64,000 bases of DNA from an uncultured archaeon (lineage in GTDB: Archaea; Iainarchaeota; Iainarchaeia; Iainarchaeales; JAAZKV01), in assembly GCA_902385225.1 (NCBI GenBank), contig CABMEU010000004.1, positions 20,662-84,661 of the forward strand. The letters are read 5' to 3'. Below the pieces are notes generated by a model. The model worked only from the letters and a program-made list of their open reading frames with translations. It was not told where the DNA came from and made no database searches. Each line of letters opens with the position of its first letter. The stretch's first letter is position 1. Positions 4,635 to 60,656 of this stretch are shown piece after piece. The translations under genes were made by a program, and so were the position numbers.

Positions 4635-5150
4635 TTGGTGGTTTTGTTGGAGGGCGGGGCGGAAGTAAAAAATCAGAAAATGCATTACTTAGTCGCGACA
4701 TGCATAATTGTAAAGAACGGGAAATACTTAATAGCAAAAAGGGCTTCATATGAACCCGCGTTCCCAAACAAGTGGACGGTTCCTGGAGGAAAACTTGAAT
4801 CAAAAGAATTCACTTCACGCAAAAACGATGCCGGAAATTTGTGGTATAATGTGCTTGAGGAACTAGTTGAGAGAGAAGTAATGGAAGAAGTCGGACTTAC
4901 AATTGAGGACATTGGTTATGTTACAAGCCTTGCATATATACGCGATGACGGGGTGCCGACAATAATAGTGAGTCTTTATGCGAACTACAAAAGCGGGGAA
5001 ATCAAATTATGCAAGGCGCTTACCGAATATGCTTGGGTTACGCTTGAAGAAGCAAAGAACTATGATTTAATTGACGGGATACACGACGAACTCGCGATGC
5101 TTGAAATGCACCTAAAAGGGCAAAAATTGGGGAAATGGAAAAGACATTAA
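4635..5150 (+). CDS. Nudix hydrolase
   Basis: The Nudix box core is REVMEEVGL, preceded by PGGKLES..., with an insertion inside the box. The start may instead be the ATG at 4679 (MHYLVATCIIVKNGKYLIAKR). Confidence 0.8.
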   Translation: MVVLLEGGAEVKNQKMHYLVATCIIVKNGKYLIAKRASYEPAFPNKWTVPGGKLESKEFTSRKNDAGNLWYNVLEELVEREVMEEVGLTIEDIGYVTSLAYIRDDGVPTIIVSLYANYKSGEIKLCKALTEYAWVTLEEAKNYDLIDGIHDELAMLEMHLKGQKLGKWKRH

Positions 5151-5182
5151 TAATTTATACTCATACTGCAAAATATTGTTGA

Positions 5183-5785
5183 ATGGTAAAACTGCTTACT
5201 CTTGTTCTAATTGTTGAGGGCGACAAAGTGCTGCTCGCAATGAAAAAAGAAGGGTTCGGCAAGGGAAAATGGAACGGGCTTGGCGGAAAAGTAAAACCTG
5301 AAGAAACCATTGAGCAGGCAGCGAAAAGGGAAGCACGCGAAGAGGCATGCGTGCGCATTATGGAAATGAAAAAATTGGGAATAGTACAATTCAGGTTCAG
5401 GGGAAGCAGGACCGTGCGCGAAATGCACATTTTTAAAGCAACAAAATACTCGGGAAAACCCGGGGAAACAAAAGAAATGCGGCCAAAATGGTTCAATCTA
5501 AACAAAATTCCTTTTGGCAAAATGTGGCCCGCAGACAGGAACTGGATGCGAATGTTTCTTTTAGGAAAACAATTCCGCGGCAGGGTGCTTTACGGGGAAA
5601 AGTACGGCACTGTAAAGAAACACAGCGTGATTTCAAACGAGGTTGTTGAAGCGAGAATCAGGAATCAAATAAAGATGGTTGCCACAAAGCATACACGCCC
5701 CGCGCTCAAACCTTTGACTCAACGAATTCCTTCAGCACGAGGGTGCGGTTATGCGCCTCGTCCCTTGCGGCGAAGAGGAGCATGA
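5183..5785 (+). CDS. MTH1/NUDT1-like Nudix hydrolase (oxidised purine nucleoside triphosphatase type) with a C-terminal extension
   Basis: LLTLVLIVEGDKVLLAMKKEGFGKGKWNGLGGKVKPEETIEQAAKREAREEACV and EMRPKWFNLNKIPFGKMWPADRNWMRMFLLGKQFRG track the human MTH1 sequence as I recall it ([57 protein letters not shown]). The last ~45 aa have no counterpart and overlap the convergent gene. Confidence 0.8.
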   Translation: MVKLLTLVLIVEGDKVLLAMKKEGFGKGKWNGLGGKVKPEETIEQAAKREAREEACVRIMEMKKLGIVQFRFRGSRTVREMHIFKATKYSGKPGETKEMRPKWFNLNKIPFGKMWPADRNWMRMFLLGKQFRGRVLYGEKYGTVKKHSVISNEVVEARIRNQIKMVATKHTRPALKPLTQRIPSARGCGYAPRPLRRRGA

Positions 5786-45911: not shown

Positions 45912-46478
45912 TTAAGACTTAATTTTTGAGAGCAGAGTCTCAATTTCCTTTTCTAAATTCCCAACCGCACCATTATTGTCCAAACGATACTCTGCATCAG
46001 AAATACACTTTGACATCTGCATTCTCGCGGGGTCCTTATCCTTAAGCTCGCGGTCCTGCTTCATCTTAAACTCCTCAAAACTCCCAACATCTCCGTGCTC
46101 CCCGGGAGAAGCTTTTACCCGCGCAAGAGTACGCTCAAACCTTGTCTTTAAATCTGCAAAAACTTCGACAATCACTCCCCCCTTTGATTTAATCAAATCC
46201 ACTTCTGCGGGGTGCCTAAGAGAAGTTATTACAAGATTATTCTTTGGGGAATAATTTGCAAGCGGAGCGCGAGCCCAGTAATCGTGCCCGAACTTCTGGC
46301 GATTACCGTCACCCATTTCACGCATTTCACTCCTATCTTTGTAATTTTTACCCAATCTTTTTAGCTCCTTACGAACCTCCTCGCCAAGGTCAACATGAAC
46401 AAAAGAATATTTATCTACCAAGTATTGGGCAACGGTATCTTTCCCCGAACCATTCAAACCAACAATCCCAATCAGCAT
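45912..46478 (-). CDS. P-loop nucleotide/nucleoside kinase (dephospho-CoA-kinase / UPF0200-like)
   Basis: The product starts MLIGIVGLNGSGKDTVAQYLV from the ATG at 46478. The longer track ORF (to 46643) would overlap the divergent gene at 46549. Confidence 0.6.
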   Translation of the reverse strand: MLIGIVGLNGSGKDTVAQYLVDKYSFVHVDLGEEVRKELKRLGKNYKDRSEMREMGDGNRQKFGHDYWARAPLANYSPKNNLVITSLRHPAEVDLIKSKGGVIVEVFADLKTRFERTLARVKASPGEHGDVGSFEEFKMKQDRELKDKDPARMQMSKCISDAEYRLDNNGAVGNLEKEIETLLSKIKS

Positions 46479-46548
46479 AACAACACCGAAAAAATTAGGG
46501 AGGAGAATTGTTTTTAATACCAACCAAGCCAAACTAATTTGTGGTAAA

Positions 46549-47178
46549 ATGGATGAGAAAGTTCTTGCAGTGAAACGAAAGGATTTGTTCGGCGCGCAGG
46601 ATGAGAAAAAGTTTGACGGTTTTTTACCTGAAGGAAAGTTCACACTTAATGAAGAAACAATGAAAAAAGCTGTTTTTATTTACCGAAAAGTCGCAAAAGA
46701 GGGGCAATTAAAACCCGCTGAAGAGGATGAGGAATACAAACAAATAATCGCATACTTAATACTTACACATAAAGGAAAAGTGTTTTGCTACAAAAGAACC
46801 GAAAAAGCAGGGGAGAAGAGACTGCACAGCAATTATTCAATCGGAGTGGGCGGGCACATAAATCCGATTGACCTTGAAAAAAAATCTGATCTCATCAAAA
46901 AAAGCATGGAGAGAGAGTTTGAGGAAGAAGTTTTGTATACAGGAGAAAAAAAATCGCGAATACTCGGTTACATAAACGATGATTCAAATTCAGTCGGGAG
47001 AGTCCACTTGGGGCTTGTATATGAAATGGAACTCGCAAATGAAAATGTGAAATTGAATGAAAAAGAACTTGATGAGGGAAACCTACTCACACTTGCAGAA
47101 ATAAGAGAAAAGTATGAACAACTTGAAAACTGGAGCAAAATAACTTTTGATTATCTTGAGAAAAATTGGAAGAACTAA
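46549..47178 (+). CDS. Nudix-fold (MutT-family) predicted phosphoesterase
   Basis: Nudix-like segment GVGGHINPIDLEKKSDLIKKSMEREFEEEV. The overall layout resembles the COG4112-type proteins as I recall them. Confidence 0.5.
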   Translation: MDEKVLAVKRKDLFGAQDEKKFDGFLPEGKFTLNEETMKKAVFIYRKVAKEGQLKPAEEDEEYKQIIAYLILTHKGKVFCYKRTEKAGEKRLHSNYSIGVGGHINPIDLEKKSDLIKKSMEREFEEEVLYTGEKKSRILGYINDDSNSVGRVHLGLVYEMELANENVKLNEKELDEGNLLTLAEIREKYEQLENWSKITFDYLEKNWKN

Positions 47179-47205
47179 CACTCTGCTGAAAACTTGGTGC
47201 TTTAA

Positions 47206-47730
47206 TTATTCTTTGGCTGAGTTTAACACATCACTCACAACTTTCAGCATTTTCTCGCTATCAATAGCAAGTTTTCTATACTTAACGCCGGAGCAGTTAA
47301 AAATCTCTTCGGTTCTTGGAACCTCTTCTTTATAATGTTTCAAGAAAATAACTTCCTTAATTCCCGCAGAGGCAATTAATTTCGCACACTCGTTGCAGGG
47401 AAAATGCAGGCAGTACATTGTGGCGCCATGAACATCGGTTGCGTGATTCTGAACAAGAGCATTCGCCTCGGCATGAGTTGCAAGACAATGACCTGTATTC
47501 TTCTTACTCCAATCTACATTAGCGACATCCTTTCTGCAGTAACCAAGCTCAAAACCCGATGGCACTCCTGGAGCCGGACCATTATACCCTGAGGCGACTA
47601 TTCGCTTATCCTTCACAATAACCGCGCCTGATTTGAATTTAATGCAGGAAGCGCGCGTTGCGATTGCAACAGCAGAAAGCATGAAATACTCATCCCAAGA
47701 CGGTCTCAATAAACCCTTTTTTTCTTCCAT
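47206..47730 (-). CDS. Deoxycytidylate (dCMP) deaminase
   Basis: Zinc motifs HAEANAL and PCNECAKLI, plus WDEYFM..A...A.R..C. Confidence 0.88.
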   Translation of the reverse strand: MEEKKGLLRPSWDEYFMLSAVAIATRASCIKFKSGAVIVKDKRIVASGYNGPAPGVPSGFELGYCRKDVANVDWSKKNTGHCLATHAEANALVQNHATDVHGATMYCLHFPCNECAKLIASAGIKEVIFLKHYKEEVPRTEEIFNCSGVKYRKLAIDSEKMLKVVSDVLNSAKE

Positions 47731-47791
47731 AAAAATACCGCAACTAAAACAAATTAATTATAAATCAAAACAATTAAAATGATTGGCAAAA

Positions 47792-48490
47792 CTACTCCCC
47801 GCGGAGCTTTACATCCACACTCTCTTTTGCTTCTGAAATGAACGCCTTAATCTGGGCAAGCTTCATTGGCTTTAATTTTCTTGATTTTGGGTCAAGAGCA
47901 CGCGGAGCTTGGAACTGCTGAAGGAACCATTTCTCGCCTTTTAGAAAATGAGATATTTCCGTTAGGTCGACTGTTGTAAGCCTGGGGTAAAGAGTGGTTC
48001 TAAATTCGTGCGCAACACCTGAGGCGCGAATCAAATCAACTGATTCCTGAATCTTTTCAAATGGAAGTTTTGATTGAGTAATTTCGTGGTATTTTGACTG
48101 GGGCGCCTTAAAATCCATCGCAACATAATCCAAGAGATTCTCAGAGAAGAGTTTTTTTAGAACTTTTGGGTTTGTGCCATTCGTGTCAAGTTTTACTAAA
48201 AATCCAAGAGATTTAATCTTCTTTATGAAATTATGGATCCCCGGGGAAACAGTAGGCTCGCCCCCAGTAATTACAACCCCGTCAAGCATTTTCTTATTCT
48301 TCTCAAGGAAAGCGAAGAAATCCTTTTCCTCAATTAACTCCCTCTTTCCTTTTTTAAAATATTTAAATGAAGTAAGCTCTTTGTTATAACAAAATTTGCA
48401 CTTATAATTGCAATTCACGAGAAATACTATGCACGCAACCTTGTTTGGAAAATCCATTAAAGTGGTTTTTTGAAGCGCCCCTATAAACAT
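47792..48490 (-). CDS. nrdG: Anaerobic ribonucleotide reductase activating protein (radical SAM)
   Basis: CNYKCKFCYN (CxxxCxxC) and GVVITGGEPT. It is adjacent to nrdD. Confidence 0.85.
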   Translation of the reverse strand: MFIGALQKTTLMDFPNKVACIVFLVNCNYKCKFCYNKELTSFKYFKKGKRELIEEKDFFAFLEKNKKMLDGVVITGGEPTVSPGIHNFIKKIKSLGFLVKLDTNGTNPKVLKKLFSENLLDYVAMDFKAPQSKYHEITQSKLPFEKIQESVDLIRASGVAHEFRTTLYPRLTTVDLTEISHFLKGEKWFLQQFQAPRALDPKSRKLKPMKLAQIKAFISEAKESVDVKLRGE

Positions 48491-48651
48491 TACAACACCA
48501 AGCTAGCGAATTATTCATCAAACAATATAAAAATACAAAATATCAATCGAAAGGAAAATAAAATTTAAATAAAAAAAGAATTACTGCGCAAGAAAGGCAC
48601 GGTAAAAAGCACGCGTACTTTTCACCGTTAAATGAAATCCTTTTCGCAAGG

Positions 48652-48801
48652 TTACTGACAGCCGCAGTCGCCCTTTGGCTCAACAGCTGAATCAAATTTC
48701 TTTCTGTCGGCGAACTCGGCCTGCTTTGAGTCATTCCAATTGCTTACTGGTCTTATGTAACCAACAACTCTGCTATACACTTCGCATTTTGTTTTAACCA
48801 T
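48652..48801 (-). CDS. Stand-alone glycyl-radical segment of class III ribonucleotide reductase (49 aa)
   Basis: My own translation reads MVKTKCEVYSRVVGYIRPVSNWNDSKQAEFADRKKFDSAVEPKGDCGCQ*. It contains the NrdD C-terminal glycyl-radical motif RVxGY followed by WN..K..EF..RK. GGGGTGA lies 4 nt upstream of the ATG. It is below the track length cutoff. The track's 48543..48734 ORF is in a different frame and looks spurious. Confidence 0.7.
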   Translation of the reverse strand: MVKTKCEVYSRVVGYIRPVSNWNDSKQAEFADRKKFDSAVEPKGDCGCQ

Positions 48802-48932
48802 ACTTTCACCCCTAATTTCTTCCAAAAACGCATTAACTCTCTTAACGCATTTTTAAAAATCATTCAATCATTTAACGCTACCTATTACAACACATCCATG
48901 TAAAAACATTTCGCAACCACTTTGCCGCCCTC

Positions 48933-50978
48933 TTACTCCTGCTCACACACCGGGCAGTATTCATGCTCCCCTGATAAATAACCATGAATCGGACAAATAC
49001 TAAAGCTTGGAGTTAATGAGAAGTAAGGCATCTTGTAATTTGTCGCAATCTTCTTCACTAAATTCTTTGTCGCTTCCTTTGAAGGCAATTTCTCTCCAAG
49101 GAAAACGTGGAATACTGTTCCCCCAGTGTACCTAGTCTGCAATGGGTCCTGCAAATCAAGGGACTCAAATAAATCTAATCCCAAATTTACCGGGATCTGA
49201 GAGGAGTTTGTATAATACGGCGCAACCCCGTGCTCCTTTACCTGCTTATCATTTGAAACAATAATCTCCGGATATTGTTTCTTATCAGCCCAGGCGAATC
49301 TCCTTGAGGTCCCCTCGCCGGGAGTCGCTTCAAGGTTAAAAATATCCCCGGTTTCATCCTGGTAACCTTGAATTCTATCACGCATAAAATCAAGAATCTT
49401 AATTGAGAACGCCGCACCCTCCTTTGAAGCAATATTTTTTCCCATATAATTAATCAAAGCCTCATTCATTCCAAGAAGACCAATTGTCGAGAAGTGATTT
49501 GTCCAATACTGCCCTGTCTGTTCCTTAATTCCTCTCAAATAAAATTTTGAGTAAGGATACAAGCCCTGCTCCGTGAGACGCTCAAGAGTTTTTCTTTTAA
49601 TTACCAGGGATTCTTTCGCTAAATCCATTAAGTGACCTAATTTTTCAAAAAATACTTCCTCGGTTTTTGCCTTGAAGCCAATTCGCGGCATATTAATTGT
49701 CACAACCCCAATTGAACCTGTTAGAGGATTTGCTCCGAATAATCCGCCCCCTCTTTTGTTCAGCATTCTATTATCTAATCGAAGTCTGCAGCACATTGAG
49801 CGCGCATCTTCGGGCTTCATATCAGAATTAATATAATTTGAGAAATAAGGAATACCATACTTTGCAGTCATATCCCAAATGCCATCATACTTTTCTGAAT
49901 CCCAATCAAAATCTTTTGTAATATTATAAGTTGGGATTGGAAAAGTGAAGGGCCTTCCGTTCGCGTCCCCCTCAACCATTACTTCAGTAAATGCCTGATT
50001 GAACAAATCCATTTCGTCCTGGAAATCGGAGTAAGTAAGTTCAGTTGGTTTACCGCCAATAATTACAGGGTCGTGCGCAATATGCGGAGGAACAATCAAA
50101 TCCATTGTTACATTAGTAAAAGGACACTGGAAGCCAACTCTAGTCGGAACTGCCACATTGAAAACAAATTCCTGAAGAACCTGCTTTACTTCTTTGTAAG
50201 AAAGATTATCATATCTAATGAATGGAGCTAAATAAGTGTCAAAGTTACTGAATGCCTGAGCACCAGCCGCCTCACCCTGCATTGTGTAAAAGAAATTTAC
50301 TACTTGACCGAGCGCCGAGCGAAGATGCTTTGCGGGCTTTGAGGCAATTTTTCCTTTAACCCCTGTGAAACCTTCAAGCAAAAGTTGTTTTAGGTCCCAG
50401 CCAACACAATAAACCGCGAGCACATCAAGGTCATGAATATGCATATCCGCTGCCTTATGAGCCTCAGCAATCTCTCTTGGATAAATTCTTCCTAACCAAT
50501 AATTTGAAACTACTCTACCCGCGATATTAAAGTTCATTCCCTGCAAAGAATAAGCCATGTTACTGTTTTCCCTTACTCTCCAGTCCTCTTGAGTGATATA
50601 TTGGTTAATTATCTCAAAATTATTCACCATATCCTCGGTTTTTCGCAAGAGTTCGCGCTGGTGGCGGTAAAGAATATAGGCTTTTGCGGTCTTATCGTGC
50701 CCGCCCTTAATCAAAGTGGATTCAACAATATCCTGAATCTGCTCAACTGATGGAACTGCGTCGCCGCGAAACTGATCCTCAACCCTATCAATAACCCTTT
50801 TAGCAATCTCATCAGATTTTTTTCTATCCGAGCCGCCAACGGCCTGCACAGCCTTCCAAATAGCAATACCAATCTTTGATTCATCAAAAACGGCTTTAGA
50901 ACCATCACGTTTAATCACAAATTTAGGCACCAGGCACCAACCCCAACTAATTTTTCGTCTAAAAAAACTCTTCTCCAA
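48933..50978 (-). CDS. nrdD: Anaerobic ribonucleoside-triphosphate reductase (class III) large part, lacking the C-terminal glycyl-radical segment
   Basis: ATP-cone start VIKRDGSKAVFDESKI, core motifs (MCCRLRL, GNLEATPGE) and a C-terminal Zn-site remnant CPIHG...CPVCEQE*. The likely true start is GTG at 50918 (GGTG 9 nt upstream); the track start at 50978 is TTG. Confidence 0.9.
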   Translation of the reverse strand: MEKSFFRRKISWGWCLVPKFVIKRDGSKAVFDESKIGIAIWKAVQAVGGSDRKKSDEIAKRVIDRVEDQFRGDAVPSVEQIQDIVESTLIKGGHDKTAKAYILYRHQRELLRKTEDMVNNFEIINQYITQEDWRVRENSNMAYSLQGMNFNIAGRVVSNYWLGRIYPREIAEAHKAADMHIHDLDVLAVYCVGWDLKQLLLEGFTGVKGKIASKPAKHLRSALGQVVNFFYTMQGEAAGAQAFSNFDTYLAPFIRYDNLSYKEVKQVLQEFVFNVAVPTRVGFQCPFTNVTMDLIVPPHIAHDPVIIGGKPTELTYSDFQDEMDLFNQAFTEVMVEGDANGRPFTFPIPTYNITKDFDWDSEKYDGIWDMTAKYGIPYFSNYINSDMKPEDARSMCCRLRLDNRMLNKRGGGLFGANPLTGSIGVVTINMPRIGFKAKTEEVFFEKLGHLMDLAKESLVIKRKTLERLTEQGLYPYSKFYLRGIKEQTGQYWTNHFSTIGLLGMNEALINYMGKNIASKEGAAFSIKILDFMRDRIQGYQDETGDIFNLEATPGEGTSRRFAWADKKQYPEIIVSNDKQVKEHGVAPYYTNSSQIPVNLGLDLFESLDLQDPLQTRYTGGTVFHVFLGEKLPSKEATKNLVKKIATNYKMPYFSLTPSFSICPIHGYLSGEHEYCPVCEQE

Positions 50979-51275
50979 TGAATTTTTAAAAAGCTTTGAT
51001 AGTGATGTTTCTCTTATATAAAAACCTTACCGTGGAGAAAAAAGAAGTTTGGTAAAAGAACCACAATAACACCCCTTTCATTAGCAAAACCAAAAAAATG
51101 TCCAAGAAAAGAGAAAAATGAGTGGAAAAACTAACAAAAACCACAAAATAAGTTAGGAAAATCGTCCAGGAGTGTGTGCGAGAAAAAAAATAAATCATAA
51201 ACTAATAGAAAAAAGTTAAACAAAAAAATAATAAGTTCGAGAACAAATTAATTTTAAGAAAAAAATCAAAAACAA

Positions 51276-51938
51276 TCAAAATTTATCGGCGAGCGGGATA
51301 AAAATATATTTCTTATCCTTAATTCCTGCAAAAAGAAGGTTCTGAATAGAAAGCCCAGAGTTTCTGCTGGCTTCAGCAGCACAAGCAAGCATCTGTTTTG
51401 CTGTAACCCATTCATTGTCACGGGCAAACCTAAGAAAAAACTCCTGCGCGCCCTTGGAATGATGGGCTGGGGAGACAATTTCTTCAACACTCGGGAGATT
51501 TGTTTTAGCCATTGCAACAAATTCCTGGTTTAAGGAGTAAATGTGGGGTTTTCTTAAAACCCAAGGGTGTTTTTTTGGCATCCTGTTTGCCTTCTCGACA
51601 GAAGAATTCAAAAAACTTATCAGCCTTGAAGCAGTGGTTCCATGAACAGCTTTAACTACAAGCTTGCCCAAATGAGGATAATTTCTTGAAACATCAAAAA
51701 CCCTCACTCTCCCCCCAAAGAATTTTTTTACCACTCTGAACGCTGCATTAACTGAAGTTTTAGTCTCAACAGTCCTTAGCCAAGCGGGAGAAAAACTATT
51801 AGGGGAAGCACGTGAATCAATTACTTTGCCTCTTAAAAAGAAACGCCGTGCATTTGCTTTTCCTTTGCCCTTGTCACTGCGATGAATAAGAAAACTTATG
51901 CGCTGATTTAGCGAAGAGGGCAAGGCACGAGAAACCAT
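51276..51938 (-). CDS. Hypothetical protein (220 aa)
   Basis: Non-overlapping ORF with a basic N-terminus. No motif recognised. Confidence 0.4.
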   Translation of the reverse strand: MVSRALPSSLNQRISFLIHRSDKGKGKANARRFFLRGKVIDSRASPNSFSPAWLRTVETKTSVNAAFRVVKKFFGGRVRVFDVSRNYPHLGKLVVKAVHGTTASRLISFLNSSVEKANRMPKKHPWVLRKPHIYSLNQEFVAMAKTNLPSVEEIVSPAHHSKGAQEFFLRFARDNEWVTAKQMLACAAEASRNSGLSIQNLLFAGIKDKKYIFIPLADKF

Positions 51939-52008
51939 GACTAAAATATACTTAGCAAATATTTAAACTAAGCCCCCTGAAGAAAATGAGATAAAACAAA
52001 ATGAGAGA

Positions 52009-53247
52009 TTATTTATAAAACAAAAAGTCTTTGCAAAAATCTTTCACTTTAATCTTAATCTGCGCGAGTTTTGGCTCATTTTGGCGATTCGCAAGAGCCA
52101 AATGCATATACTCTGCGACTTGCTTCATCTCATTCTCTTTCATTCCCCTTGTTGTAAGAACCGGAGTCCCAATTCTAATCCCCGAAGGGTCCCATGGAGA
52201 GCCTGTTTCATACGGAATTGTGTTCTTGTTGCAATAAATACCGGCTTTCTCAAGAGCCTTCTCCGCTTCAATCCCGGAAATACCGCTCTTTCTAACATCC
52301 ACAAGAATCAAATGATTATCAGTGCCCCCGGAAACCAAGCGATAACCATAACTTTGAAGAGACTCTGCGAGCGCGCGAGCGTTCTTTACTATCTGTGAAG
52401 CATACTCTTTGAACTCGGGCGCAAGCGCTTCCTTAAACGCCACCGCTTTTGCCGCAATCACATGCTCATGAGGACCACCCTGAAGCCCAGGGAACACGGC
52501 CTTGTCAATCCTCTCAGCGAATTCTTTTTTACACATAATCGCCGCGCTCCTTGGACCGCGAAGAGTTTTATGAGTAGTGGTTGTAACTACATCAAAGTAA
52601 GGAACAGGATTCTCATGCACCCCTGCCGCACATAAACCAGCGATGTGGGCAATATCCGCTACACAAAACGCGCCTATTTCATCACAAATCTTTCTAAACT
52701 CCTTAAAATCAATTGCACGCGGGTATGCGGTGTAACCTGAGAGTACTAATTTTGGTTTCTCTGCAAGCACTTGTTTTCTAATCGCATCATAATCAAGGAG
52801 CTCTGTTTCCTTATCAACCCCATATTGAATGAAATTATACATTTTACCGGAGAAATTAACTTTGTGCCCATGCGTTAAGTGACCCCCTTCTGTTAATTTG
52901 AGCCCCATTGCCTTATCGCCCGGAGAAAGAAGAGCGCTGTACATCGCCATGTTCGCGGGAGAACCGGAATTTGGCTGAACATTCGCATGCTCCGCGCTAA
53001 ATAATTGCTTCAAGCGGTCAATCGCGAGAGTCTCAATCTTATCAATCACCTCATTTCCGCCATAATAACGCTTGTTTGGATACCCTTCAGCGTATTTGTT
53101 TGTCGGAAAAGAACCAAGAGCCTCAAGAACCGCCATTGAAACCAAATTCTCGCTTGGAATCAATTCAATCCCATCCATCTGGCGCTCCTTCTCAGCCATT
53201 ATCAAATCGTAAATAACTTTATCCTGTTTTTGAATGTTTTCAAACAA
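52009..53247 (-). CDS. glyA: Serine hydroxymethyltransferase
   Basis: [25 protein letters not shown] and the PLP-lysine motif [12 protein letters not shown]. Confidence 0.93.
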
Positions 53248-53288
53248 AAAAATCAGCCCGATGAAATAAAATCAGAACAATTTTTAAT

Positions 53289-54680
53289 ATGAACGCACTA
53301 AAATCATCTGCTCTGGTGAAGAAAGTGAAAATTAAACTTGTTGAAACTAATAAGATGCAGCTTGCGGAGCTTGAAAAGTTTTTAGAGAAAAAGGAAAATC
53401 AAAAAATTAATGAGGAAACCTTCTTGGAAATGGCAAAGCCAATTAATTTCTCTTTCTCGCTTGAAAAGTGCTCGCGCCTCTTAAGCCACCATGTATGCGA
53501 GAGCCTTGACTCTTACACCCAGCAAAGCCAAAGATACGTGAAAATGGGGGCGGGGGCGTTTATTGTGCCCGCGGAAATCAAAAAACTCGGGGAAGGAATT
53601 GAAAAAGAATATACTGAACTAAATAATGAACTCCTTGAGCTCTACAATGAAATGACACAAATAAAGGAAGGATTTGCGGGAAGAAAGGCAACTGAGAAGG
53701 ATTATGTTTATGGAATAAAAATTGAGGACGGGAGATATGCGCTTCCAATCAGCATTATGACAAATGTTTTTATCACAATGAACTTCTCCAAGATAATTAA
53801 TTTTTATAAGATTATGAAAAGGGCGAAATTCGCTGAAAGCGAGGAACTACTGTCAAAACTTGATGAGGCAATTGGGGAAGAAAATATTGTTAAGAAAATT
53901 AATGAATTCGCTGATAATGACTGCGTGGATGAAAAGAAAATAATTGAGTTTGAGAAAATGAATTTTGGAAGAATAAGCGAAAAAGAGAACTGTGTTTTAA
54001 TAAATTCGTTTGAGAACCCTCTGCTTAGAAGCGGACTTGGGGCGCTTACATCCACAAACGCGGGAACGCCATCAACAATACTTGAAGGGTGGGAGAAAGA
54101 GCATAAAAAAGAGGAAAAAGCGCGCGGAGTAACGGAAAGAGTGCTAAACTACGGGCACGAATCAATTGTGGAACACGCACGAACCACATTCGGATTAATG
54201 ATGAGCCTTACATGCTACCATCAATTTGAGAGACACAGGCTGCCGAATAATATTAGAGAACGATTTGAGGAAATACCTGCGAAAAGCGAGGTTTTGATTC
54301 CTGAAGCTGTAAAAAGAGAAAAGGAACTCCTGAAAAAGTTTGAGGGAATCGTGAAAAAAACAAAAAAATTTAGGGAAAAACTTGGGGAAATTGGGGAGAA
54401 AAAAGCGGGCGCGTATTTACTCCTAAATTGCGACCTTTTGAAAGTAATCAGCTCAACTAACACTCGAATTGACAGAGAAGTCATGTGCGAGAGGCTATGC
54501 AATAACGCGCAATGGGAAATTAGGGAACTTTATGAAAAAAAACTTGCACTGCTAAAGAAACTCGCGCCTGTTATTTATGATAAAATCGGACCAGGGTGCA
54601 CGCGCGGACCCTGCCCTGAAGGAGCGCTAATGTGCGGAAAAATAATTGAAGTGCGAAAAAAATATGGGGTAATGCAATAA
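53289..54680 (+). CDS. thyX: Flavin-dependent thymidylate synthase ThyX, tandem-duplicated (two ThyX-like halves in one chain)
   Basis: Half 1 reads FSFSLEKCSRLLSHHVCESLDSYTQQSQRYV...EDGRYALP...MNFSKIINFYKIMKR (RHR reads SHH; SQRY kept). Half 2 reads GHESIVEHARTTFGLMMSLTCYHQFERHRLPNN...AQWEIREL (RHR kept; S..SQRY lost). Confidence 0.8.
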   Translation: MNALKSSALVKKVKIKLVETNKMQLAELEKFLEKKENQKINEETFLEMAKPINFSFSLEKCSRLLSHHVCESLDSYTQQSQRYVKMGAGAFIVPAEIKKLGEGIEKEYTELNNELLELYNEMTQIKEGFAGRKATEKDYVYGIKIEDGRYALPISIMTNVFITMNFSKIINFYKIMKRAKFAESEELLSKLDEAIGEENIVKKINEFADNDCVDEKKIIEFEKMNFGRISEKENCVLINSFENPLLRSGLGALTSTNAGTPSTILEGWEKEHKKEEKARGVTERVLNYGHESIVEHARTTFGLMMSLTCYHQFERHRLPNNIRERFEEIPAKSEVLIPEAVKREKELLKKFEGIVKKTKKFREKLGEIGEKKAGAYLLLNCDLLKVISSTNTRIDREVMCERLCNNAQWEIRELYEKKLALLKKLAPVIYDKIGPGCTRGPCPEGALMCGKIIEVRKKYGVMQ

Positions 54681-60337: not shown

Positions 60338-60386
60338 AACTTAAAGCTAACCATACAATTTTAATCATTTCAAACCCAATATTTAT

Positions 60387-60656
60387 GGACTAGGCCGGGC
60401 CGCTAGCGGTGGCTTGTCACCATAAATCCGCTTTATGATGGGGCTGAAGTGAGGCAAGAGGTTCGTATGCTATTGTTGACACCATTTTGGTGGCGTCGAA
60501 GCTCTGTCCTTACAGGTGTTTCACTGAAACGAACCCCGCCAGGGCAGGAATGCAGCAACGGTAATTTTAATGGAAGACGCTGAAGGGAAACGGAGTGGAG
60601 TCACTAGAGTGAAATGCTAACATTAGCTAAAAATCCATTGCCTTACGCGTCCATGC
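60387..60656 (+). ncRNA. Signal recognition particle RNA (archaeal 7S RNA); ends approximate
   Basis: The 5' GGACTAGGCCGGGCCGC resembles the archaeal SRP RNA 5' end (GGGCUAGGCCGGG...). The helix-8 signature CCAGGGCAGGAATGCAGCAACGG has the GGAA tetraloop and flanking AGCA. The 3' CCTTACGCGTCC can pair with the 5' GGACTAGG and is followed by GCTTTTTG. This GC-rich island has no ORF. Confidence 0.75.

What the first reader, a model, noticed from the sequence alone, without database searches (positions are those of the whole stretch)
48652..50978. Split class III ribonucleotide reductase: the glycyl-radical segment is a separate 49-codon gene
**Seen**
- The nrdD ORF stops at 48933, right after the zinc-site remnant (...SFSICPIHGYLSGEHEYCPVCEQE*).
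- 131 nt further on (48802..48932 carries stops in all three minus-strand frames), and in a different frame, a 49-codon ORF (48801 down to 48652) starts behind its own GGGGTGA RBS. A TTTTTAAAAA TATA-like element lies about 50 nt upstream.
- That ORF encodes MVKTKCEVYSRVVGYIRPVSNWNDSKQAEFADRKKF...

**Known**
- In NrdD the radical-bearing glycine sits in a C-terminal RVxGY motif a few residues after the Cys cluster, on the same polypeptide.
- Oxygen cleaves the chain at that glycine.
- For pyruvate formate-lyase a stand-alone glycyl-radical peptide (GrcA/YfiD) can replace the damaged C-terminus.

**Inference**
- This organism may run NrdD as a two-piece enzyme with a replaceable radical module, a GrcA-like solution applied to ribonucleotide reduction.
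- The first Zn ligand pair is also altered (CPIHG instead of CxxC).
Basis: partly seen in the sequence, partly recalled or inferred. Interest (0 to 1): 0.8.

Follow-up and report, generated by a model that had tools for sequence, protein, structure and literature searches.

The report
Two-piece anaerobic ribonucleotide reductase
In this DPANN-type archaeon the enzyme that makes DNA building blocks without oxygen is encoded in two genes, with the radical-carrying glycine loop on its own 49-residue peptide; hundreds of related uncultured archaea and bacteria share this layout, and no paper I could search describes it.

Summary
The nrdD reading frame (48933..50930/50978, minus strand) stops right after its zinc ribbon. 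A separate 49-codon gene (48652..48801) with its own ribosome-binding site encodes the missing glycyl-radical loop (RVVGY). The activase gene nrdG follows.

It is not an assembly error, pseudogene or intron:
- A 98%-identical locus from another metagenome assembly has the same spacer.
- Spacers in relatives differ in length and frame and share only the ribosome-binding site and ATG.
- The small gene is under strong purifying selection (15 nucleotide changes, no amino-acid change, versus L001).
- 103 of the 120 nearest large-subunit clusters lack the loop.
- All 150 best cluster representatives matching the small protein are stand-alone proteins of 46-138 residues.
- Split and fused forms intermix on the tree.

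The best reading is an obligate two-subunit class III reductase. The "replaceable radical module" idea is plausible but untested. A 2026 review states that spare-part proteins are known only for formate lyases. I rate this a new variant of a known kind.

The parts
48933..50930 (-). nrdD large subunit: ATP-cone, catalytic barrel with the MCCR finger loop, and a Cys-x2-His...Cys-x2-Cys zinc ribbon. It ends ...CPVCEQE*. The ORF stays open upstream to the TTG at 50978, but the likely start is the GTG at 50930 (665 aa, 75.6 kDa).
   Evidence: Pfam ATP-cone and NRDD positions 1-529/562. NCBIfam NF006126 scores 1032 bits over positions 4-649/684. P0121 is 98% identical and called at 665 aa. Molecular mass.
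48802..48932 (-). 131-nt intergenic spacer with stop codons in all three frames. It is not conserved beyond the closest strain, apart from the ribosome-binding site.
   Evidence: alignment A1; alignment A3. It is not repeated elsewhere in the window or in the fetched loci. No Rfam family matches it.
48820..48858 (-). RNA hairpin of 17-18 base pairs with G-U pairs, so it forms only on the sense strand; its 3' arm ends in a run of five U. Its 5' arm contains the TTTTTAAAAA 'TATA-like' element. Specific to the window's lineage.
   Evidence: Folding energy -15.6 kcal/mol, z -5.6, 0 of 200 shuffles fold as well. L090 keeps the hairpin, and both stem substitutions preserve pairing (G-U to A-U, G-C to G-U).
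48806..48812 (-). Shine-Dalgarno-like GGGGTGA, 4 nt before the ATG of the small gene.
   Evidence: Besides the start of the small gene itself, GGAGGTG/GGGGTG before the ATG is the only clearly conserved part of the spacer in relatives.
48652..48801 (-). Small glycyl-radical subunit, 49 aa and 5.6 kDa. The predicted radical glycine is Gly14 (codon 48760..48762) in the RVVGY motif. The C-terminal tail ends ...GDCGCQ.
   Evidence: Pfam NRDD positions 531-562/562, E 3e-10. There are 437 homologues, and the best 120 listed are all 41-85 aa, most starting MVKTKCEVY. Against L001 there are 15 nucleotide differences and no amino-acid difference over 38 codons.
48599..48628 (-). 13-bp hairpin 24 nt after the stop codon of the small gene, followed by a T-rich tract. 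Possibly a terminator or an mRNA-stabilising element.
   Evidence: z -3.4. L090 keeps it with paired changes on both arms.
47792..48490 (-). nrdG, the radical-SAM activase of class III ribonucleotide reductase.
   Evidence: NCBIfam TIGR02495 NrdG2, E 1e-55, 188 bits against a cut-off of 131. Pfam Radical_SAM and Fer4_12.

Best explanation
This is an obligate two-subunit class III (anaerobic) ribonucleotide reductase.

Shown:
- The 665-aa chain carries the ATP-cone, the catalytic barrel with the finger-loop cysteines (MCCR) and a complete Cys/His/Cys/Cys zinc ribbon.
- It stops exactly at the boundary between the zinc ribbon and the C-terminal loop.
- A separately translated 49-aa peptide carries that loop, with the radical glycine predicted at Gly14 in RVVGY.
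- The split is an inherited, selected trait of a large NrdD clade in DPANN archaea and CPR bacteria. Fission and re-fusion have both occurred within this clade.

Inferred:
- The peptide docks into the barrel of the large chain, as the covalently attached loop does in fused enzymes.
- NrdG, encoded next door, abstracts a hydrogen atom from Gly14.
- The glycyl radical then generates the thiyl radical on the finger loop, which drives NTP reduction.

Secondary inference (about 0.35): because oxygen destroys glycyl-radical enzymes by cutting the chain at the glycine, putting the loop on a 5.6-kDa peptide lets the cell replace only that peptide rather than the 76-kDa enzyme. This would be a GrcA-like spare part made constitutive.
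For: - The two ORFs tile the family profiles without gap or overlap: Pfam NRDD positions 1-529 and 531-562, TIGR02487 positions 2-548 and 549-580.
- Fused relatives read CPKCEAEGIKTKCEVYSRVVGY where the window reads CPVCEQE* | MVKTKCEVYSRVVGY. The break is clean, with nothing lost.
- In the T. maritima structure the zinc ribbon sits between the last barrel strand and the glycyl loop, and the zinc is bound by CxxxH...CxxC. The split therefore falls at a domain boundary and leaves a complete ribbon (PMC4493059).
- The same split is seen in independent assemblies from ENA, JGI, NCBI and Logan, with the same SHMT-nrdD-small-nrdG synteny. L090, a 457-kb contig with a 98%-identical large subunit, has the same spacer.
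- In split loci of the window's own lineage the spacer is 43-131 nt, and across all split loci the small gene lies in different frames. Only the ribosome-binding site and ATG are conserved.
- Purifying selection acts on the small gene: 15 of 114 nucleotides differ from L001 with no amino-acid change.
- 14 of 81 species-level loci are split. 103 of the 120 nearest large-subunit clusters lack the loop. All 150 best 50%-identity cluster representatives matching the small protein are 46-138 aa.
- Split and fused forms intermix on a tree built without the loop region. Fused P0184 is sister to split P0182.
- nrdG is adjacent, and the genes sit in a deoxynucleotide-metabolism cluster with ThyX, SHMT, dCMP deaminase and a dNMP-kinase-like gene.
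- L038 shows that a stand-alone NrdD-type radical domain can also sit beside an intact nrdD.
Against: - There is no biochemical, transcript or proteomic evidence here. Assembly of the two chains, activation of the peptide by NrdG, and activity are all inferred from homology.
- An AlphaFold2 model of the concatenated chains gave pLDDT below 50 for the finger loop, the zinc ribbon and the glycyl loop, so it says nothing about docking.
- The rest of the genome could not be searched for a second, intact nrdD or another reductase class.
- For the replaceability idea specifically: gene fission is common in DPANN genomes (my own knowledge), so drift alone could explain the split. No locus shows extra copies of the small gene. 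The zinc ribbon, proposed to contact the activase (PMC4493059), stays on the large chain, so activation may need the assembled complex.
Confidence: 0.8

Rival explanations
1. Neutral gene fission. The two pieces form a stable complex that behaves exactly like the fused enzyme. The split was fixed by drift in reduced genomes and brings no repair or turnover benefit. This is a rival only to the 'replaceable cartridge' part, not to the two-subunit reading.
For: Split and fused forms interconvert on the tree, for example fused P0184 beside split P0182, which suggests the two states are near-equivalent. No duplicated small genes occur in the loci read. Split protein genes are well known in Nanoarchaeota and other DPANN archaea (my own knowledge).
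Against: The split state dominates a large, old clade: 103 of the 120 nearest clusters. The small proteins have acquired features of their own. Cysteine-bearing C-terminal tails occur in 68 of 120 small proteins against 4 of 81 fused tails, and some lineages add N-terminal extensions. Stand-alone zinc-ribbon-plus-loop proteins exist beside intact nrdD genes, which is hard to explain without function in trans.
Confidence: 0.45
2. The two frames are rejoined after transcription or during or after translation, by an intron, ribosomal bypassing or frameshifting, or protein trans-splicing, so the cell makes a normal single-chain NrdD.
For: T4 nrdD carries a group I intron (my own knowledge). Relatives of this very gene carry inteins at other sites. 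The spacer contains a stable, conserved hairpin.
Against: No Rfam family matches the spacer. Spacers of related split loci differ in length and in frame offset, and overlap in some lineages; they share only a ribosome-binding site and an ATG. The N-terminus MVKTKCEVY is conserved as a start in most of the 120 listed called proteins. Neither junction has split-intein halves: the large chain ends 3 residues after CxxC, and the small chain starts 5 residues before the conserved Cys. The hairpin is absent from L086, L081 and L001.
Confidence: 0.03
3. Assembly or sequencing artefact, or a decaying pseudogene.
For: A single window cannot exclude an error on its own. MAG assemblies do contain frameshifts.
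Against: The same architecture appears in independent assemblies. The near-identical spacer is present in L090. Both parts are under strong purifying selection. The split family spans many phyla.
Confidence: 0.02
4. The small protein is a true GrcA-style spare part for a different, intact NrdD encoded elsewhere in the genome, and the local truncated large ORF is inactive.
For: L038 shows a stand-alone NrdD-type radical domain next to an intact nrdD. The rest of this genome was not available.
Against: The large ORF is highly conserved (1032 bits to the equivalog model; 98-63% identical relatives). In every locus read it is linked to the small gene and nrdG. The window holds no second nrdD. The spare in L038 carries its own zinc ribbon, whereas the window's peptide does not.
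Confidence: 0.05

Closest known systems
Canonical single-chain class III ribonucleotide reductase NrdD with activase NrdG (E. coli, phage T4, Thermotoga maritima; TIGR02487, PF13597, NF006126)
   Same: ATP-cone, barrel, MCCR finger loop, zinc ribbon, RVxGY glycyl loop and adjacent nrdG are all present, and the sequence is 55-65% identical to fused relatives. The Cys/His/Cys/Cys zinc ribbon is of the same type as in T. maritima NrdD.
   Different: The glycyl loop is a separate, independently translated 49-aa protein rather than the C-terminus of the catalytic chain. Many of the small proteins also carry a cysteine-bearing tail that fused enzymes lack.
GrcA/YfiD and phage T4 Y06I, the autonomous glycyl radical cofactors ('spare parts') of pyruvate formate-lyase
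   Same: A small stand-alone protein that carries the radical glycine and presumably inserts it in trans into a barrel that lacks a functional loop. It would presumably be activated by the parent enzyme's activase (for GrcA).
   Different: The small protein is not homologous to GrcA; it matches NRDD, not the PFL-type Gly_radical domain. It is obligate rather than a backup, because the parent chain never had its own loop. It is much smaller (49 aa against 127 aa; the GrcA length is from my own knowledge). It belongs to a ribonucleotide reductase, and a 2026 review says no spare part is known for any glycyl-radical enzyme outside the formate lyases (PMC13450708).
Split class II ribonucleotide reductase NrdJa/NrdJb (Pseudomonas aeruginosa)
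   Same: A ribonucleotide reductase whose C-terminal functional module is encoded by a second, adjacent gene (cited in PMC9669993).
   Different: It is a different class that depends on B12. The detached part there is an IscU-like domain plus zinc finger with the redox cysteine pair, not the radical-bearing element. Here the zinc ribbon stays on the large chain.
Interrupted nrdD genes: the phage T4 nrdD (sunY) group I intron, and intein-containing NrdD
   Same: The same gene is a frequent target of intervening elements. Relatives of this locus carry inteins after residue ~269, at ~380 (the finger-loop Cys) and between residues ~170 and ~198.
   Different: There is no intron or intein at this junction. 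The intervening DNA is unconserved intergenic spacer with a ribosome-binding site.

Membership tests
Class III ribonucleotide reductase NrdD (PF13597 / TIGR02487 / NF006126) | Catalytic barrel with finger-loop cysteine; a significant match to the family models above their curated cut-offs | tested here: met
   Large ORF: PF13597 E 9e-182; NF006126 1032 bits (cut-off 548); TIGR02487 525 bits (cut-off 326). The MCCR motif is present.
Class III ribonucleotide reductase NrdD (PF13597 / TIGR02487 / NF006126) | Zinc ribbon between the barrel and the glycyl loop | tested here: met
   C-P-I-H...C-P-V-C lies in the large ORF. The CxxH form is the norm among relatives, and the CxxxH...CxxC form binds zinc in T. 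maritima NrdD. Metal binding itself was not tested.
Class III ribonucleotide reductase NrdD (PF13597 / TIGR02487 / NF006126) | Radical glycine (RVxGY) at the C-terminus of the same polypeptide | tested here: not met
   The large ORF stops at profile position 529/562. RVVGY lies in a separate ORF 131 nt downstream in another frame. The locus is therefore filed as a split variant, not as a canonical NrdD.
Class III ribonucleotide reductase NrdD (PF13597 / TIGR02487 / NF006126) | Dedicated radical-SAM activase NrdG | tested here: met
   ORF 47792..48490 matches TIGR02495 NrdG2 at 188 bits (cut-off 131).
Class III ribonucleotide reductase NrdD (PF13597 / TIGR02487 / NF006126) | Glycyl-radical formation and NTP reduction | not testable with these tools
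   Needs anaerobic reconstitution, EPR and an activity assay.
GrcA/YfiD autonomous glycyl radical cofactor (IPR011140; PFL-type Gly_radical domain) | Small stand-alone protein carrying a glycyl-radical loop | tested here: met
   49-aa ORF with RVVGY, its own ribosome-binding site and ATG, and hundreds of stand-alone homologues.
GrcA/YfiD autonomous glycyl radical cofactor (IPR011140; PFL-type Gly_radical domain) | [quoted passage not shown] | tested here: not met
   At E up to 0.1 the only Pfam hit is NRDD; there is no Gly_radical or PFL-like hit. The small protein works like GrcA but is not a member of that family.
GrcA/YfiD autonomous glycyl radical cofactor (IPR011140; PFL-type Gly_radical domain) | Backs up a parent enzyme that has its own loop and rescues it after oxygen cleavage | tested here: not met
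   The parent chain here has no loop, so the peptide is obligate. Rescue after oxygen damage cannot be tested with these tools. The L038 type (intact nrdD plus an extra radical-domain ORF) would fit this feature better.
Intron- or intein-interrupted nrdD | A conserved self-splicing RNA or intein sequence at the junction | tested here: not met
   No credible Rfam match in 48500..49100: only two weak chance-level hits, neither an intron family. The spacer is not conserved among relatives. No intein-like residues flank the junction.

The most novel reading that the evidence does not exclude
These 41-138-aa proteins could be the first autonomous glycyl-radical cofactors outside the formate lyases. 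On this reading, DPANN archaea and CPR bacteria run ribonucleotide reduction with a cheap, exchangeable radical 'cartridge' that NrdG charges and that is discarded after oxygen damage. The cysteine-bearing C-terminal tail (here CGCQ) might also act as a built-in thiol shuttle that re-reduces the active site, as the C-terminal cysteine pair does in class I and II reductases. A related subfamily with its own zinc ribbon (L038 type) could act as a true spare part for intact NrdD.
Probability: 0.3. Interest if true: 0.85.

Novelty: new variant of a known kind. Interest (0 to 1): 0.72.

Why it matters
- **Unusual placement of the radical.** Glycyl-radical enzymes are normally single chains that carry their own radical loop. 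GrcA, which serves pyruvate formate-lyase, is the only accepted exception.
[quoted passage not shown] Here a whole clade of class III ribonucleotide reductases keeps the radical glycine on a 5-6 kDa peptide.
- **A natural experimental system.** It could show whether an activase can charge a free peptide, how a radical loop docks in trans, and whether oxygen-damaged reductase can be repaired by subunit exchange.
- **Annotation and metabolic reconstruction.** Large subunits look "truncated", and the small genes are often unnamed or called hypothetical. This can lead to wrong conclusions about dNTP synthesis in DPANN and CPR organisms.

Tried and rejected
- **Intron or known RNA in the spacer.** Rfam at a permissive threshold found nothing credible.
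- **Mobile or repeated element in the spacer.** It has no copies in the window or in 80 loci.
- **Conserved spacer structure across relatives.** Alignment A1 shows only the ribosome-binding site and ATG conserved. The hairpin is restricted to the window and L090.
- **AlphaFold2 on the concatenated large and small chains**, using a 128-row alignment of fused, split-large and small sequences. Mean pLDDT was 76.5, but it was below 50 at residues 362-400 (finger loop) and 635-682 (zinc ribbon, junction and glycyl loop). The model says nothing about docking or about whether small-subunit Cys6 lies near the zinc site, so I did not run fold searches.
- **Exact-sequence lookup of the 49-aa protein.** It is not on record.
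- **First homologue search.** It timed out and was repeated successfully.
- **Phage collection.** Only three weak hits; the two in annotated records lie within annotated nrdD genes.
- **Sigma-70 promoter scan.** Not informative for an archaeon. TTTTTAAAAAT occurs 4 times against 1.3 expected, with 5 of 100 shuffles reaching that count, so this is weak.
- **Zinc-bridge idea** (small-subunit Cys6 as a zinc ligand). I considered it because some fused relatives lack the His (CPNDGY...CPHCGSTCEVY). It could not be tested.
- **Literature searches for a described split NrdD.** They returned nothing. Subscription-only papers were not searchable.
Full report
**1. The observation**

On the minus strand an ORF (TTG 50978, or more likely GTG 50930, down to TAA 48935..48933) encodes an ATP-cone plus an NrdD barrel and ends ...SFSICPIHGYLSGEHEYCPVCEQE*. 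The next 131 nt (48802..48932) contain stops in all three frames. At 48801 an ATG, preceded by GGGGTGA with a 4-nt gap, opens a 49-codon ORF. It lies in a frame shifted by 2 and encodes MVKTKCEVYSRVVGYIRPVSNWNDSKQAEFADRKKFDSAVEPKGDCGCQ.

The family profiles are tiled exactly by the two ORFs:
- Pfam NRDD positions 1-529 (E 9e-182) and 531-562 (E 3e-10) of 562.
- TIGR02487 positions 2-548 and 549-580 of 581.

The next gene downstream (47792..48490) is the activase NrdG (TIGR02495, 188 bits). An archaeal SRP RNA at 60383..60656 shows that the window is archaeal. The nearest named relatives are Diapherotrites, 'Ca. Iainarchaeum' and other DPANN MAGs.

**2. Not an error, pseudogene or recoding site**

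A scan of one genome per species returned 80 related loci. In 13 of them, as in the window, the large ORF stops after the zinc ribbon. A separate ORF with the glycyl loop follows in 12; in the thirteenth (L044) the contig ends just after the large ORF. The 13 are:
- archaeal MAGs L001 and L003 (84% and 77% identical to the window's large ORF);
- Micrarchaeota L004-L006;
- L007 (labelled only 'bacterium');
- CPR bacteria L011, L018 and L031;
- L055 (labelled only 'bacterium'), which groups with L031;
- Desulfurellales L032 and L044;
- a Desulfuromonadales locus, L017, split a few residues earlier.

In the 11 of these loci examined in detail, the small ORF has an ATG start, most with a Shine-Dalgarno-like sequence just upstream. 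Within the window's own lineage the spacer is 43-131 nt, and across all of them the small gene lies in different frames. An alignment of six related spacers is conserved only at GGAGGTG/GGGGTG and ATGGTTAAAACAAAATG.

Exact-protein lookups found the same SHMT-nrdD-small-nrdG gene order on contigs assembled independently by ENA, JGI, NCBI and Logan. L090, a 457-kb JGI contig whose large subunit is 98% identical, carries the same ~132-nt spacer at roughly 85-90% identity.

Between the window and L001, the first 38 codons of the small gene differ at 15 of 114 nucleotides but at no amino acid. Rfam finds nothing in the spacer, the spacer is not a repeat, and neither junction carries intein-like sequence.

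**3. How widespread it is**

- A search with the 49-aa protein gave 437 hits at E <= 1e-5. The best 120 listed are all 41-85 aa, most starting MVKTKCEVYSRVVGYIRPV.
- A search of 1.84 billion cluster representatives gave 2594 hits at E <= 1e-3. All of the best 150 are 46-138 aa.
- Of the 137 new representatives examined, 58 were minimal, 73 had an N-terminal extension and 6 had their own CxxC...CxxC zinc ribbon. A few of the longer ones may be gene fragments.
- Of the 120 nearest large-subunit clusters (63-98% identical), 103 lack the loop and 17 are fused.
- On neighbour-joining trees the split forms make up most of one clade, with a second, separate split clade (L032/L044). Fused forms are nested inside. 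For example, fused P0184 (CPICDAELGITEEQARSKSVKRTKCEVY...) is sister to split P0182 (CPICDAELGIAN*), which looks like a re-fusion through the spacer.
- Fused relatives such as P0185 read CPKCEAEGIKTKCEVYSRVVGY, so the window's CPVCEQE* | MVKTKCEVY is a clean break.

**4. Structure and mechanism**

In the T. maritima NrdD crystal structure, the zinc ribbon is inserted between the last barrel strand and the C-terminal glycyl loop, and the zinc is bound by CxxxHx6CxxC (PMC4493059). The window's large chain has C-x2-H-x11-C-x2-C. This is the standard form in nearly all relatives, fused or split. The zinc ribbon is therefore complete and the cut falls at a domain boundary.

The large chain keeps the strongly conserved family motifs, including the double-cysteine MCCR finger loop.

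I infer that the peptide inserts its loop into the barrel in trans, that NrdG generates the radical on Gly14, and that catalysis then proceeds as in fused enzymes. An AlphaFold2 model of the concatenated chains was confident for the barrel. It scored below pLDDT 50 for the finger loop, the zinc ribbon and the glycyl loop, so it gives no information on docking.

Why the gene is split is open. One view is that the peptide is a constitutive, cheaply replaceable radical module; oxygen cleaves glycyl-radical enzymes at the glycine. The other is neutral fission in reduced genomes. I put the adaptive reading at about 0.35.

**5. Comparison with what is known**

The large ORF meets the NrdD models, the zinc-ribbon criterion and the activase criterion. 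It fails the 'glycine on the same chain' criterion.

The small protein works like GrcA/YfiD but is not a member of that family. It matches NRDD, not the PFL-type Gly_radical domain, and it is obligate rather than a backup.

A split class II reductase (NrdJa/NrdJb) is known, but there the detached part is a redox and zinc-finger module.

Full-text searches found no description of a split NrdD. Two papers frame the question:
- The 2026 review of glycyl-radical enzymes says spare-part proteins are known only for formate lyases and that it is undetermined whether they exist elsewhere.
- The 2021 JBC paper says the same.

Public databases do hold these proteins. They are unnamed, called 'hypothetical', or named 'anaerobic ribonucleoside-triphosphate reductase'.

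**6. Verdict**

The feature is real and conserved, and it is a family-level trait rather than a peculiarity of this organism. I rate it a new variant of a known kind, with interest 0.72.

The main caveats are:
- there are no experimental data;
- the rest of the genome was not searched for another reductase;
- subscription-only literature could not be searched.

Noticed in passing
window 48652..48690 (tail of the small ORF); proteins P0001-P0120: Small subunits often carry cysteines in the tail after the ...EF.DRK motif: 68 of 120 have a Cys there, and 61 of 120 within the last three residues (window...GDCGCQ*). Fused NrdD tails have this in only 4 of 81 and 1 of 81. The tail could be a thiol shuttle, as in class I/II C-termini, a metal ligand, or an inter-subunit link. 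It remains unexplained.
   Followed up: partly
window 48820..48858 and 48599..48628 (minus strand); L090 5066..5122 and 5290..5330: Two stable sense-strand RNA hairpins bracket the small gene (z -5.6 and -3.4). Both are kept in the 98%-related L090, and the stem substitutions preserve pairing. The upstream hairpin contains the TATA-like TTTTTAAAAA, and its 3' arm ends in a run of five U. They may set differential mRNA stability or termination around the small cistron. Relatives with short spacers lack the upstream hairpin.
   Followed up: partly
L038 2917..5922 (Saccharibacteria MAG CAYYPY010000019): An intact 701-aa nrdD is followed, with overlapping stop and start, by an 89-aa ORF that has its own CxxC...CxxC zinc ribbon and a second glycyl loop (KCEVYSRIVGYIRPV). 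nrdG comes next. This is a GrcA-like spare-part candidate for NrdD. Similar proteins with ...C..C[FY].KDP.L....(Q).CE[VI]YSR appear among the cluster representatives (P0291, P0338, P0347, P0353, P0360).
   Followed up: partly
L086-L088 2002..4971; proteins P0122, P0141, P0146, P0174, P0208 and others: Many close relatives of the large subunit are 985-1096 aa because they carry inteins (Pfam Intein_splicing, LAGLIDADG_3). The inteins are inserted after residue ~269, at ~380 (the finger-loop MCCR cysteine) or between residues ~170 and ~198. The window's copy has no intein.
   Followed up: partly
L017 4989..5171 (Desulfuromonadales MAG): A differently placed split. The large ORF ends ...EHFACPHTHEGQAA*, and the small ORF reads MSTKCSAKTEVYSRVCGFFRPV. 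The second zinc ligand pair therefore seems to be divided between the two chains.
   Followed up: no
window 45912..54680: The split nrdD sits in a deoxynucleotide-supply cluster: ThyX (53289..54680 +), SHMT (52009..53247 -), an unknown 220-aa ORF (51276..51938 -), nrdD, the small subunit, nrdG, dCMP deaminase (47206..47730 -), a NUDIX protein (46549..47178 +) and a dNMP-kinase-like P-loop protein (45912..46643 -). Much of this order is conserved in relatives.
   Followed up: yes
L004-L006, L031, L032, L055 (around 5000..5260): In other split lineages the large chain has a 10-60-aa tail after CxxC (for example DEEIGY..., or a heptad-like EKTEQIESKIRQLKLKL). The small chain has a charged, helix-like N-terminal extension (MEEERLESLEKKR..., MTRESIERKIRELEAEKSAL...). 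These could pair to tether the two subunits. The window's subgroup has neither.
   Followed up: no
window 50982..50992 and 48849..48859: The same 11-mer, TTTTTAAAAAT, lies about 50-60 nt upstream of the likely starts of both the large and the small gene. It occurs 4 times in the window against 1.3 expected, with 5 of 100 shuffles reaching that count. It might be a shared promoter element, but the evidence is weak.
   Followed up: partly
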